Assembly: GCF_024298765.1 (NCBI RefSeq)
Contig: NZ_CP101210.1
Source: Escherichia coli
Lineage (GTDB): Bacteria > Pseudomonadota > Gammaproteobacteria > Enterobacterales > Enterobacteriaceae
Length of the DNA stretch: 64,000 nt
Direction: 5' to 3' (one strand)
Each line of letters begins with the position of its first letter. The stretch's first letter is position 1. Below, piece after piece: positions 576-61,462 of this stretch. The translations under genes and the position numbers were made by a program. Below the pieces are notes generated by a model, which was not told the origin of the DNA, made no database searches, and saw nothing but the letters and a program-made list of their open reading frames with translations.

Positions 576-613
576 GCGTTAGCTGAGTTTTTCGCGAAAA
601 ATTCAGCTAACGC
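576..613. other. 38-bp near-perfect palindrome in the purH 5' leader
   Basis: gcgttagctgagtttttcgcgaaaaattcagctaacgc is self-complementary except one mirrored mismatch; lies between the PUR box and the purH ATG. Confidence 0.5.
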
Positions 614-6329: not shown

Positions 6330-6375
6330 GAGTAAAAATGACTCGCTACCCGCAGCAGGCGAGTCATTTTTACTC
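6330..6375. promoter_or_regulatory. Pair of 17-bp inverted repeats (ZraR enhancer-like sites) in the zraP-zraS divergent region
   Basis: gagtaaaaatgactcgc, 12-bp spacer, then gcgagtcatttttactc: a perfect inverted repeat. Confidence 0.6.
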
Positions 6376-6895: not shown

Positions 6896-7597
6896 TCAGA
6901 ACGTTTTCTCGTTGGGTTGCCAGCGACAGAAATCAGAGTTTGCCACTAACAGTAATTGCGAACCTTCGGGCGCTTCCAGCCATGCCACGCTGACATCAAC
7001 AGAAGAGCGGCTCTGGCGGCGCTCGATATGCGCTATCGCCTGCGAATCTAAATCAGGTTTAATGGTTTGCCCTTCGCAGGTGGTCACGGTCTGTTCCATC
7101 GCATGCCAGCGCCCCTGGCGCAGCACGACTCTTCCCTGACGTAAGGCATCGCTAATCTGGCGGATCTGATCAGCACGATAACGGTATAAATCGATTTGGT
7201 CGTTAGAAAGCTGCTGCTTTTCCCCATCGGATTCACGTTGCATAAAGCTCAGATCGCCGCGATCGTCAAAACGCGCGCGAATGTTCACCGGCGGTTTGCT
7301 GTAAACATTGATATTGATGAGCGTAAGGTTATCGCCCTGCCAGCGATACTCTCGCGTGGTGGTATCGCCACTGCGCCACGGGCTAAACACGGCAAGCAGA
7401 TGCACATTATCGCCGCTGTCTTTTCGCCAGATGCGTACCGCGCCCTGGTCTTCAGCAAATCCACTGGCGGTAAAGGGAGGAAGTGAAGAGTTGTGGCTAC
7501 AGGCAGTGAGAAACAGCGCACCTGCCAGCATCAATGATCGACGCCAGAAAGACAAAAGGGGTGAAACCACCCCTTCGTTAAAACTGTTCACTGCCAC
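6896..7597 (-). CDS. yjaH: Conserved hypothetical protein (probable lipoprotein)
   Basis: ORF with hydrophobic N-terminus and Cys (LAGALFLTACSHN); synteny between zraP and hupA; track start is probably a GTG, exact start uncertain. Confidence 0.8.
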   Translation of the reverse strand: MAVNSFNEGVVSPLLSFWRRSLMLAGALFLTACSHNSSLPPFTASGFAEDQGAVRIWRKDSGDNVHLLAVFSPWRSGDTTTREYRWQGDNLTLININVYSKPPVNIRARFDDRGDLSFMQRESDGEKQQLSNDQIDLYRYRADQIRQISDALRQGRVVLRQGRWHAMEQTVTTCEGQTIKPDLDSQAIAHIERRQSRSSVDVSVAWLEAPEGSQLLLVANSDFCRWQPNEKTF

Positions 7598-7603
7598 GCA
7601 ATC

Positions 7604-7876
7604 TTACTTAACTGCGTCTTTCAGTGCCTTGCCAGAAACAAATGCCGGTACGTTAGCTGCGGCAATTTTGATTTCTTTACCGGTCTGCGGGTTGCGGCCA
7701 GTACGCTCAGCGCGGTGGTTCACTTTGAAGGTACCGAAACCAACCAGTTGTACAGCATCGCCTTCTTTCAGAGACTCAGTAATTGCAGCCAGAGTGGACT
7801 CCAGAGCAGCTTTAGCCTGGGTTTTGGACAGTTCTGCTTTCTCTGCAATTACATCAATCAGTTGAGTCTTGTTCAT
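7604..7876 (-). CDS. hupA: Nucleoid-associated protein HU alpha subunit
   Basis: 90 aa [73 protein letters not shown]. Confidence 0.98.
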
Positions 7877-7975
7877 AAGTTATCCTTACAATGTGTTTAT
7901 CGCTTGCTAAGCATCGAGTGCGACGGAAATGCCAGAATAGCACTCTCCTGCATACACGCACCGATAGCCACTTTT

Positions 7976-8012
7976 TTTCGCCCCCCAAATGTAGACCAGA
8001 CGGGGGGCGAAA
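7976..8012. other. GC-clamped stem-loop (tttcgcccccc / ggggggcgaaa) in the yjaG-hupA intergenic region
   Basis: 11-bp inverted repeat with a 15-nt loop, preceded by a T7 run on the plus strand. Confidence 0.5.
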
Positions 8013-8062
8013 GGGAAGACTCCAGGTACGACAAATCAGGCGTTAAATCACGTTTTCTGGTC

Positions 8063-8653
8063 TTATTGCTGAAAAATTATACCAATATTGCTCTCACCCG
8101 CCTCACGCAGGTCTGCCCTAAGGCCTTTTATCAGCTCGATATCGCGTTCTTCGCACTCAGCTAAAAGTCGGAATATTTCCCACTGAATGTCCCATTCTTG
8201 CTCTACAGCTGGGTTTTCTTTGAGCTCTTCATCGCTCATTTCGCGACCAGCCTGAGTCATTTCCAGCATCGCAACGGTCGTGATGGAGGTCTTACTCACT
8301 TCCACCGCGTGTTCGAGCGTTTCACCACTCAAACGCGAATGGACCAGTTCACTTAACGCCACGCAGGCATCGATTGCCGGATAAACGCCGTACAGATCGA
8401 AATCGTCGGCTGAAGGAATCGCTTCTTCAAATTTCTCCAGTTGGCTGTCGAAATTTACTTTTGCGTCTTTGACGGTCAGCGTTTCCCAGATGAGATCGAG
8501 AATACGGCGGTAAATTTGCCCATCACCAAAACCAGTTTGCTGACAGAATACGGCGTAATTGGGGTACATGCGTTCGCATAAGCAGGCCATAAAAGTGACG
8601 TGCTGCCAGCTTTCCAGGCGCTCCAGACGCAGATGAATTGGGTTTTGTAACAT
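8063..8653 (-). CDS. yjaG: DUF416-family conserved protein
   Basis: 196-aa ORF in conserved position between hupA and nfi. Confidence 0.88.
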   Translation of the reverse strand: MLQNPIHLRLERLESWQHVTFMACLCERMYPNYAVFCQQTGFGDGQIYRRILDLIWETLTVKDAKVNFDSQLEKFEEAIPSADDFDLYGVYPAIDACVALSELVHSRLSGETLEHAVEVSKTSITTVAMLEMTQAGREMSDEELKENPAVEQEWDIQWEIFRLLAECEERDIELIKGLRADLREAGESNIGIIFQQ

Positions 8654-26382: not shown

Positions 26383-26440
26383 GCGCAAAAAGGCTGGTGA
26401 CTAAAAAGTCACCAGCCATCAGCCTGATTTCTCAGGCTGC
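26383..26440 (-). terminator. rplL-rpoB intergenic attenuator hairpins
   Basis: Minus strand: cagcctgagaaatcaggctg then aggctggtgactttttagtcaccagccttttt (stem-loop plus U-run) between rplL and rpoB. Confidence 0.7.
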
Positions 26441-30189: not shown

Positions 30190-30221
30190 AGCGTGCAAAA
30201 AGGGCATCAAATGATGCCCTT
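30190..30221 (-). terminator. Intrinsic terminator downstream of tufB
   Basis: Minus strand aaaagggcatcatttgatgccctttttgcacg. Confidence 0.7.
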
Positions 30222-30253
30222 TTAGTGCGCATTGCGTCAAATGTTATCGGCAA

Positions 30254-38583: not shown

Positions 38584-38767
38584 TCACAACCCGAAGATGT
38601 TTCACTTCAGAGTTGCGAAAATTTGAGAGACTCACGAACAACTTTCGTTGTTCAGTGTTTCAATTTTCAGCTTGATCCAGATTTTTAAAGAGCAAATATC
38701 TCAAACATCACCCGAAGATGAGTTTTGAGATATTAAGGCAGGTGACTTTCACTCACAAACCAGCAAG

Positions 38768-44959: not shown

Positions 44960-44964
44960 AACCC

Positions 44965-44990
44965 ATGCCGGATGCACCAGCATCCGGCAT
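44965..44990. terminator. REP-like hairpin between convergent trmA and yijD
   Basis: atgccggatgcaccagcatccggcat perfect inverted repeat. Confidence 0.5.
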
Positions 44991-44998
44991 GATACCGA

Positions 44999-61364: not shown

Positions 61365-61462
<98 letters not shown>

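What the first reader, a model, noticed from the sequence alone, without database searches (positions are those of the whole stretch)
7972..8012. G6/C6-clamped hairpin with inverted terminator polarity between yjaG and hupA
The 11-bp stem tttcgcccccc/ggggggcgaaa has its T-run before the hairpin on the plus strand and an A-run after it on the minus strand, so it cannot be a standard intrinsic terminator for yjaG (minus strand). It lies about 100 bp upstream of the hupA start and could be a structural or protein-binding element in the hupA control region.
Basis: seen in the sequence. Interest (0 to 1): 0.25.

Follow-up and report, generated by a model that had tools for sequence, protein, structure and literature searches.

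The report
Inverted repeat spanning the hupA promoter
The G6/C6 "hairpin" is a real 11-bp inverted repeat, but it sits on the mapped core promoter and transcription start of the E. coli HU-alpha gene hupA, was already described in 1994, and is not a terminator or a conserved RNA structure.

Summary
A perfect 11-bp inverted repeat (TTTCGCCCCCC / GGGGGGCGAAA) with a 15-nt spacer lies at 7976-8012. The window is E. coli, and yjaG and hupA are both on the minus strand.

The repeat is not upstream of the hupA control region. It is the hupA core promoter. Two independent published mappings (-105 from the ATG; SMRT-Cappable-seq transcript 4200175-4200605) put the start at window 7981, the last G of the G6 run. 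On that basis:
- the spacer holds the -10 hexamer TACATT (-12..-7);
- the G6 run is a GC-rich discriminator plus +1;
- the A7 run is +4..+10 of the mRNA;
- the C6 arm is promoter spacer (-31..-21).

hupA mRNA therefore carries only half of the 3' arm and cannot form the hairpin.

It is not a yjaG terminator. No U-tract follows it, Term-seq lists no 3' end there, and full-length nudC-hemE-nfi-yjaG-hupA transcripts run across it.

Across 34 distinct Enterobacteriaceae sequences there are no compensatory changes. Only 2 keep all 11 pairs. The two arms evolve at different rates.

An inverted repeat overlapping the hupA promoter, with a proposed HU-promoted cruciform that occludes it, was published by Kohno et al. 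1994. The feature is already known and of low interest.

The parts
8002..8012 (-). 5' arm of the inverted repeat (minus strand 5'-TTTCGCCCCCC-3'). Promoter positions -31..-21: the last base of the putative -35 hexamer plus the upstream part of the spacer.
   Evidence: positions computed from the TSS at 7981
7987..8001 (-). 15-nt spacer ('loop') GTCTGGTCTACATTT. Promoter positions -20..-6. It contains the -10 hexamer.
   Evidence: invariant in 34 distinct Enterobacteriaceae sequences except two columns, and conserved in Erwinia, Pantoea and Dickeya
7988..7993 (-). -10 hexamer TACATT (-12..-7). It matches TATAAT at 4 of 6 positions, including A-11 and T-7.
   Evidence: Read from the sequence at the canonical distance from the mapped +1; invariant in all orthologues
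7976..7986 (-). 3' arm GGGGGGCGAAA. Promoter positions -5..+6: the G-rich discriminator, the start site and the first transcribed bases.
7981..7981 (-). hupA transcription start (+1, G), equal to MG1655 4200176.
   Evidence: Mendoza-Vargas 2009 table: hupA p1 known TSS -105 (Kohno 1990; Claret 1996) and their own mapping -105. SMRT-Cappable-seq primary transcript 4200175-4200605 in two conditions. Coordinate mapping.
7972..7978 (-). A7 run, +4..+10 of hupA mRNA.
   Evidence: nearly invariant
8012..8017 (-). Putative weak -35 hexamer TTCCCT (3 of 6 matches, 18-bp spacer). It reads TTCACT (4 of 6) in many other genera.
   Evidence: Inference from the sequence and alignment. No consensus promoter is found by the scan, as expected for an activator-dependent promoter.
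7877..7981 (-). 105-nt hupA 5' UTR, almost invariant across Enterobacteriaceae.
   Evidence: pi 0.029 against 0.163 at hupA third codon positions
7604..7876 (-). hupA coding sequence (HU-alpha, 90 aa).
7552..7576 (-). hupA intrinsic terminator (stem-loop 7576-7555 followed by a T-run), with the mapped 3' end at 7552 (MG1655 4200605).
8063..8653 (-). yjaG coding sequence (DUF416). Its stop codon lies 50 nt upstream of the repeat.

Best explanation
The repeat is the core of the sigma-70 promoter of hupA (HU-alpha), read as a palindrome.

What is shown. RNA polymerase starts at G7981, the last G of the G6 run. The 'loop' carries the -10 hexamer TACATT. The G-run is a GC-rich discriminator plus +1. 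The C-run lies in the spacer at -26..-21. The A7 run is the start of the 105-nt 5' UTR. The element does not terminate yjaG transcription, because transcripts from nudC/hemE/nfi/yjaG read through it into hupA. hupA's own mRNA cannot form the hairpin.

What is inferred. The sequence is conserved because it is a promoter and a 5' UTR, not because the two arms pair. The full 11-bp symmetry is an Escherichia-lineage coincidence layered on an older C5-6 / G5-6 arrangement. The G-rich discriminator probably ties hupA output to growth state and DNA superhelicity, as GC-rich discriminators do at stable-RNA and fis promoters.

The one function proposed for the symmetry itself is HU-favoured cruciform extrusion that hides the promoter (Kohno et al. 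1994). This remains possible in E. coli. It is not supported by conservation, and by my estimate it is energetically marginal in vivo.
For: TSS. hupA p1 is at -105 from the ATG in classical mapping and in directed TSS mapping (PMC2760140). SMRT-Cappable-seq lists a full-length primary transcript 4200175-4200605 containing b4000 only, in both growth conditions (PMC6131387). The 241-nt region is 100% identical to K-12 DH1, and the coordinate mapping was checked. TACATT then falls exactly at -12..-7.

Not a terminator. A7, not a U-tract, follows the stem on the transcribed strand. The terminator scan finds only the hupA terminator. The Term-seq tables list 3' ends at 4200253, 4200389 and 4200605 but none in 4200094-4200190. 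An observed operon b3996|b3997|b3998|b3999|b4000 spans the repeat.

No selection for pairing. In 34 distinct Enterobacteriaceae sequences, 0 of 11 pairs show a change on both sides, and 79.1% of cells are paired against 79.4% in shuffles. Only 2 of 34 keep 11 of 11 Watson-Crick pairs, and the DNA hairpin energy falls from -13.7 to between -2 and -6 kcal/mol in Salmonella, Klebsiella/Raoultella, Kluyvera and others. The lower 5' arm lies in fast-evolving DNA (pi 0.23), while its partner lies in the near-invariant 5' UTR (pi 0.029). Erwinia, Pantoea and Dickeya keep the -10 hexamer and G-run but have further unpaired positions.

Other checks. The element is single copy per genome, in 5420 of 5426 E. 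coli genomes. Rfam gives no match.

Prior description. PMC3969353 summarises Kohno et al. 1994 (J Biochem 115:1113) as showing that the hupA promoter overlaps an inverted repeat able to form a cruciform.
Against: The C-run in the spacer is itself well conserved (C60-C65 nearly invariant; 5 of 6 C in Erwinia and Pantoea). Spacer sequence is usually free to vary, so a 5-6 bp C/G symmetry 21 bp apart could be under some selection that I cannot separate from the general invariance of -26..+105.

hupA is reported as activated by DNA relaxation (PMC8301835). To my knowledge that is opposite to the usual behaviour of GC-rich-discriminator promoters, and it is what a supercoil-driven cruciform occluding the promoter would predict.

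I could not read Kohno 1990, Kohno 1994 or Claret 1996. Their -35 assignment, and the identity of their inverted repeat with this one, are inferred. The inference rests on this being the only inverted repeat that overlaps the core promoter.
Confidence: 0.85

Rival explanations
1. Cruciform switch for HU autoregulation (Kohno et al. 1994). Under high negative superhelicity, which HU helps to build or constrain, the repeat extrudes as a cruciform. This places the -10 hexamer in single-stranded loops and splits the -35 from the start site, so RNA polymerase cannot bind. Relaxation or low HU reabsorbs the cruciform and turns hupA on.
For: The repeat is perfect and covers -31..+6 of the mapped promoter. 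The model is published, as summarised. HU binds cruciform DNA with high affinity (titles cited). hupA is listed among genes activated by DNA relaxation. At sigma = -0.06 the supercoil energy released by extruding 37 bp (24-27 kcal/mol) about equals my estimated cost of roughly 27 kcal/mol.
Against: The 15-nt spacer is long for extrusion. At unconstrained in-vivo superhelicity (-0.025 to -0.04) the relief is only 9-18 kcal/mol against a cost of about 27 (a rough nearest-neighbour estimate without a junction term).

The pairing is not conserved. Only 2 of 34 sequence types are perfect, many genera have 6-8 of 11 pairs with hairpin energies of -2 to -6 kcal/mol, and there are no compensatory changes. 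If the mechanism is real, it is lineage-specific. No in-vivo structural evidence was available to me.
Confidence: 0.2
2. RNA hairpin acting on read-through transcripts. In nudC-hemE-nfi-yjaG-hupA transcripts the full 11-bp stem forms. It would serve as a 3'-exonuclease barrier or processing site that defines a stable yjaG 3' end, or would modulate read-through into hupA.
For: Read-through transcripts that contain both arms exist. The RNA stem is strong (-25.8 kcal/mol, z = -4.1) and persists in the fold of the whole intergenic region. To my knowledge, stable stem-loops without a U-tract mark trimmed ends of Rho-terminated transcripts (Dar and Sorek 2018; I saw only the abstract).
Against: No 3' end is listed at or just after the stem in the Term-seq tables. 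No SMRT-Cappable-seq operon ending there was seen in the held tables. There is no covariation, and the stem is frequently disrupted in other genera. Rfam gives no match.
Confidence: 0.08
3. Palindromic operator for a dimeric DNA-binding regulator that recognises CCCCC(C)-N15-(G)GGGGG, with half-sites two helical turns apart, across the core promoter.
For: The C-run and G-run are the best-conserved part of the symmetry and persist into Erwiniaceae and Dickeya. The position is ideal for a repressor.
Against: The whole -26..+105 segment is equally conserved, so nothing singles out the half-sites. G-to-A changes in the G-run are common (13 of 34) without matching change in the C-run. The motif occurs once in the window and once per genome. 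No candidate protein is known to me.
Confidence: 0.04
4. Unconventional or bidirectional intrinsic terminator for yjaG or for an antisense transcript.
For: The stem is GC-rich with a neighbouring homopolymer run.
Against: The T-run precedes the stem on the + strand and the A-run follows it on the - strand, so neither strand has a stem followed by a U-tract. The loop is 15 nt. No 3' end is mapped there. Read-through is documented. The scan does not call it a terminator.
Confidence: 0.02

Closest known systems
hupA promoter inverted repeat / cruciform model of HU autoregulation (Kohno et al. 1994, J Biochem 115:1113-1118; hupA P mapped by Kohno et al. 1990 and Claret & Rouviere-Yaniv 1996)
   Same: Same gene, same promoter, and an inverted repeat overlapping the functional promoter domains. 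This is the only inverted repeat that overlaps the core promoter. The TSS at -105 matches.
   Different: There is nothing demonstrably different. I could not read the original, so identity of the repeat is inferred. New here: the pairing is not conserved outside Escherichia, and a rough energy estimate argues that extrusion is marginal in vivo.
GC-rich discriminator promoters (rrn P1, fis, tRNA promoters) under stringent and supercoiling control
   Same: A G/C-rich block lies between the -10 hexamer and +1 (TGGGGG, then G+1). The -35 is weak. The product is an abundant protein of growing cells.
   Different: Here the non-template strand is a G-run, which to my knowledge favours contacts with sigma region 1.2, rather than the C-containing rrnB P1 type. 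hupA is reported as relaxation-activated, not supercoiling-activated. ppGpp/DksA sensitivity of this promoter was not checked.
Rho-independent (intrinsic) terminators
   Same: GC-rich perfect stem next to a homopolymer run.
   Different: The polarity of the run is wrong on both strands, the loop is 15 nt, there is no mapped 3' end, and read-through is documented.
REP/BIME and other repeated extragenic palindromes of E. coli
   Same: Intergenic GC-rich palindrome.
   Different: It is single copy per genome, has no REP consensus, and overlaps a promoter rather than lying in a 3' UTR.

Membership tests
Intrinsic (Rho-independent) terminator | GC-rich stem with a short loop (about 3-8 nt) | tested here: not met
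   The stem is 11 bp and GC-rich, but the loop is 15 nt. The scan does not call it.
Intrinsic (Rho-independent) terminator | U-tract immediately 3' of the stem on the transcribed strand | tested here: not met
   Minus strand: the stem is followed by AAAAGTGG. Plus strand: the stem is followed by GGGAAGAC.
Intrinsic (Rho-independent) terminator | Mapped RNA 3' end at the U-tract, and loss of downstream transcription | tested here: not met
   No 3' end is listed in 4200094-4200190 in the Term-seq tables. An operon b3996-b4000 is observed as a single transcript.
Sigma-70 core promoter (hupA P) | Experimentally mapped primary 5' end | tested here: met
   -105 from the ATG by classical and directed mapping. 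A capped-5'-end full-length transcript starts at 4200175/6. This maps to window 7981.
Sigma-70 core promoter (hupA P) | -10 hexamer with A-11 and T-7 about 7 nt upstream of +1 | tested here: met
   TACATT lies at 7993-7988, which is -12..-7. It is invariant in all orthologues.
Sigma-70 core promoter (hupA P) | -35 hexamer 16-18 bp upstream of the -10 | tested here: inconclusive
   The best candidate is TTCCCT (3 of 6 matches, 18-bp spacer) and the region is variable. This is consistent with activator dependence, but the published assignment could not be read.
Cruciform-forming inverted repeat | Perfect or near-perfect inverted repeat long enough to form stable arms | tested here: met
   11 of 11 bp pair. 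DNA hairpins are -12.8 and -13.7 kcal/mol.
Cruciform-forming inverted repeat | Short central spacer, and extrusion favourable at physiological superhelicity | tested here: inconclusive
   The spacer is 15 nt. The estimated cost is about 27 kcal/mol, against relief of 9-18 kcal/mol (sigma -0.025 to -0.04) or 24-27 kcal/mol (sigma -0.06). This is a rough estimate.
Cruciform-forming inverted repeat | Extrusion demonstrated in supercoiled DNA or in vivo | not testable with these tools
   Only a second-hand summary of Kohno 1994 was available.
Conserved structured RNA / functional stem | Pairing maintained by compensatory substitutions in relatives | tested here: not met
   0 pairs change on both sides. 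Paired cells are 79.1% against a shuffled 79.4%, and 6 of 11 pairs depart only by unpaired cells. Rfam gives no match.
Repeated extragenic palindrome (REP/BIME-like) | Many copies per genome sharing a consensus | tested here: not met
   The median is one place per genome in 5420 genomes. The motif occurs once in the window.

The most novel reading that the evidence does not exclude
In Escherichia only, completion of the palindrome to 11 bp has turned the hupA core promoter into a supercoil- or HU-sensitive structural switch, either a DNA cruciform or an RNA hairpin in read-through transcripts. Other enterobacteria lack this. It would explain why hupA, despite a GC-rich discriminator, is reported as activated by DNA relaxation. 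The cruciform half of this idea is already published. What would be new is its lineage-specific origin and a demonstration in vivo.
Probability: 0.12. Interest if true: 0.4.

Novelty: already known. Interest (0 to 1): 0.1.

Why it matters
HU is one of the most abundant nucleoid proteins, and the alpha/beta subunit ratio changes with growth phase, so how hupA senses growth state and DNA topology is of real interest. This locus, however, is a classically mapped promoter, and its inverted repeat was already proposed as a cruciform-based autoregulatory device.

This analysis adds three modest points:
- it places the repeat precisely relative to modern TSS, 3'-end and full-length-transcript data;
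- it shows that pairing is not evolutionarily maintained, which weakens the cruciform model as a general enterobacterial mechanism;
- it shows that the core promoter and the entire 105-nt 5' UTR are under much stronger constraint than synonymous sites.

Tried and rejected
Intrinsic terminator. Rejected on polarity, loop size, the absence of a Term-seq 3' end and documented read-through.

Known RNA family. Rfam at E up to 10 gave only two chance-level hits to eukaryotic families.

Repeated element. Rejected, because the motif and the 49-nt segment are single copy.

Variation within E. coli. The few divergent genomes looked like homopolymer sequencing errors, with yjaG and hupA annotated as frameshifted, so they were not used.

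An alternative, larger inverted repeat over the promoter. Only one other pair was found, an 8-bp repeat at 7993-8000 / 8056-8063, and it is not conserved.

My own first guess of a promoter at TGCTATTCT (7942-7934). Abandoned once the mapped TSS at -105 was found.

CRP-site scan. TGTGA-N6-TCACA with up to 3 mismatches was uninformative and did not hit the conserved AAAACGTGA block.

Further 3'-end and TSS datasets. No usable supplementary text was held or found for Dar & Sorek 2018, TERMITe 2025, the multi-study 3'-seq preprint, the Rend-seq annotation paper, Cappable-seq 2016 or Thomason 2015.

Primary papers. Kohno 1994 is not held. The paper cap stopped me from checking ppGpp and discriminator papers that mention hupA.

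Full report
**Observation.** The window is E. coli. A 241-nt segment around the finding is 100% identical to many complete genomes, including K-12 DH1, and lies between yjaG and hupA. In this window nfi, yjaG (8653-8063), hupA (7876-7604) and yjaH are all on the minus strand. The repeat finder confirms a perfect 11-bp inverted repeat with arms 7976-7986 and 8002-8012 and 15 nt between them.

Read in the direction of transcription (minus strand) the sequence is CCC-TTTCGCCCCCC-GTCTGGTCTACATTT-GGGGGGCGAAA-AAAAGTGG. The T-run precedes the stem on the + strand and an A-run follows it on the - strand.

As a single strand it folds strongly: RNA -25.8 kcal/mol with z = -4.1, and DNA about -14 kcal/mol with z = -3.3. 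A perfect 11-bp repeat with a 3-20 nt loop is expected 0.33 times per 64 kb under a first-order Markov model, so P(at least one) = 0.24. The window holds 8 such loci. The repeat is therefore real, but taken alone it is not far beyond chance at genome scale.

**What it sits on.** Mendoza-Vargas et al. 2009 (PMC2760140) list hupA p1 with a known start at -105 from the ATG (Kohno 1990; Claret 1996) and the same position from their own directed mapping. Independently, SMRT-Cappable-seq (Yan et al. 2018, PMC6131387) lists, in two growth conditions, a full-length primary transcript NC_000913.3 4200175-4200605 containing only b4000.

With hupA's ATG at 4200281 equal to window 7876, the start is window 7981, the last G of the G6 run. 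The 4200175 value fits a 0-based start. Its partner 4200605 is exactly the Term-seq 3' end and lies just after the T-run of the predicted terminator at 7576-7555.

The anatomy follows from this:
- TACATT at 7993-7988 is the -10 hexamer at -12..-7, and it lies in the 'loop'.
- T-GGGGG at -6..-1 is a G-rich discriminator.
- G7981 is +1.
- CGAAAAAAAG is +2..+11.
- The 5' arm TTTCGCCCCCC occupies -31..-21. It touches a weak -35 candidate (TTCCCT, 18-bp spacer) and fills the upstream spacer.

The consensus promoter scan finds nothing here. That fits a promoter with a poor -35 that the literature describes as CRP- and Fis-regulated (title of Claret & Rouviere-Yaniv 1996).

The main consequence is that hupA mRNA contains only +1..+6 of the 3' arm and cannot form the hairpin.

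**Not a terminator.** Neither strand has a stem followed by a U-tract, and the loop is 15 nt. The Term-seq tables of Adams et al. 2021 list 3' ends at 4200253, 4200389 and 4200605 on this strand. They list none between the yjaG stop (4200094) and 4200190, and they have no yjaG entry. The SMRT-Cappable-seq operon tables list b3996|b3997|b3998|b3999|b4000 and b3997|...|b4001 as observed transcripts. Transcription from upstream therefore runs through the repeat into hupA. Absence from one Term-seq dataset is weak evidence for a poorly expressed gene. Combined with the polarity and the read-through it is sufficient.

**Conservation.** Eighty Enterobacteriaceae loci were fetched with YjaG as the query. 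In the 78 that include hupA, the yjaG-hupA spacer is 185-187 nt.

Everything from the C-run (-26) through the whole 5' UTR to the ATG is nearly invariant, while the sequence upstream varies. Mean pairwise difference by region is as follows:

| Region | pi |
|---|---|
| C-run to TSS | 0.044 |
| 5' UTR | 0.029 |
| Lower 5' arm and -35 region | 0.23 |
| Rest of the spacer upstream | 0.20 |
| hupA third codon positions | 0.163 |
| yjaG third codon positions | 0.39 |

The two arms thus sit in differently constrained DNA. On 34 distinct sequences, none of the 11 pairs shows a change on both sides. 79.1% of cells are paired against 79.4% in shuffles, and six pairs depart only by unpaired cells. T-to-C at the third stem position breaks the pair in 24 of 34 sequences. 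G-to-A/T at one position of the G-run breaks the pair in 13 of 34 without any change in the C-run.

Only 2 of 34 sequence types keep 11 of 11 Watson-Crick pairs. The DNA hairpin energy drops from -13.7 kcal/mol (E. coli) to -4.8 (Salmonella diarizonae), -5.9 (Raoultella and some Citrobacter) and -2 to -4 in several other genera.

In Erwinia, Pantoea and Dickeya the gene order and the CTGGTCTACATTTGG core persist, but the arms diverge further. The segment is single copy in 5420 of 5426 E. coli genomes. Rfam has no family for it.

**Prior knowledge.** PMC3969353 (PLoS One 2014) summarises Kohno, Yasuzawa, Hirose, Kano, Goshima et al. [quoted passage not shown] The hupA promoter overlaps an inverted repeat able to form a cruciform. 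HU may favour its formation by raising negative superhelicity. The cruciform would then block access of RNA polymerase. The reference is also cited in PMC13010138.

The original is not held. Since 7976-8012 is the only inverted repeat overlapping the core promoter, I infer that it is the same element. The finding is therefore already in the literature, including the 'structural element in the hupA control region' idea.

**How it most likely works.** Three things are shown: this is where RNA polymerase binds and starts hupA transcription, upstream transcription reads through, and the pairing is not maintained in evolution.

The following is inferred. The G-run acts as a GC-rich discriminator, which in stable-RNA and fis promoters couples promoter output to ppGpp/DksA, initiating-NTP levels and superhelicity. 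This rests on established knowledge and was not tested here. The full palindrome is most likely incidental.

The cruciform model remains a live rival for E. coli itself. A nearest-neighbour estimate gives about 27 kcal/mol to convert the 37-bp duplex into two hairpins, with no junction term. The relief is 24-27 kcal/mol at sigma = -0.06 but only 9-18 kcal/mol at -0.025 to -0.04. Extrusion is therefore plausible on purified supercoiled plasmids and marginal in vivo.

In the model's favour, hupA is listed among relaxation-activated genes. That is not what a GC-rich discriminator alone would predict.

An RNA role in read-through transcripts and a palindromic operator are possible but unsupported.

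**Verdict.** It misses that the element is the mapped core promoter and start site. The feature is already known and of low interest.

Noticed in passing
window 7877-7981 (minus strand), hupA 5' UTR: The whole 105-nt 5' UTR is almost invariant across 78 Enterobacteriaceae loci (83 of 104 columns invariant; pi 0.029 against 0.163 at hupA third codon positions and 0.39 at yjaG third positions). It is largely conserved even in Erwinia, Pantoea and Dickeya. Only the last ~30 nt are explained by the published RaiZ/ProQ pairing site, so the constraint on +1..+75 is unexplained.
   Followed up: partly
window 7904 (MG1655 4200253, + strand of MG1655): The Term-seq tables of Adams et al. 2021 list an 'orphan' RNA 3' end inside the hupA 5' UTR at +78, 28 nt upstream of the ATG, at the upstream edge of the ~30-nt region reported to pair with RaiZ. 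It could be a premature termination or a processing product.
   Followed up: no
L083 about 1618-1741 (Dickeya; alignment A2 columns 130-252): Dickeya carries an insertion of about 124 nt in the middle of the otherwise conserved hupA 5' UTR. From memory the sequence (…TTACTTGAGTAAGTCAATGGGGTGAACGAGGAAAGCCAACGCACCTG…) resembles an ERIC/IRU enterobacterial repeat. This was not tested.
   Followed up: no
window 7552-7576 (minus strand): The hupA intrinsic terminator (stem-loop plus T-run, mapped 3' end at 7552) lies inside the first codons of the annotated yjaH coding sequence. yjaH expression therefore needs read-through or its own promoter. Transcripts b3997-b4001 are listed in the SMRT-Cappable-seq tables.
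   Followed up: partly
window 8048-8056 (minus strand AAAACGTGA) and 8031-8037: There are short invariant blocks upstream of the promoter, centred near -62 to -70, that persist in Erwinia, Pantoea and Dickeya. They probably belong to the published CRP and/or Fis sites. A simple CRP-consensus scan with up to 3 mismatches does not hit them.
   Followed up: partly
window 7993-8000 and 8056-8063: A second perfect 8-bp inverted repeat (AGACCAGA / TCTGGTCT) links the promoter spacer to the yjaG stop codon, with 55 nt between the arms. The distal arm is not conserved, so it is probably chance.
   Followed up: yes
window 576-613, 6332-6373, 26392-26417, 30198-30223, 38695-38734, 44964-44991, 61393-61431: There are seven other loci with perfect inverted repeats of at least 11 bp and loops of 3-20 nt, against 0.33 expected per window. 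6332-6373 lies in the zraP-zraS divergent region. 44964-44991 and 61393-61431 contain REP-like GCCGGATG / TTATCCGGCCTAC motifs.
   Followed up: no
L082 (E. coli SCU-124, NZ_CP051706.1): The few E. coli genomes with 90-96% identity over the repeat appear to be homopolymer-length assembly errors. In this record both yjaG and hupA are annotated as frameshifted pseudogenes.
   Followed up: partly
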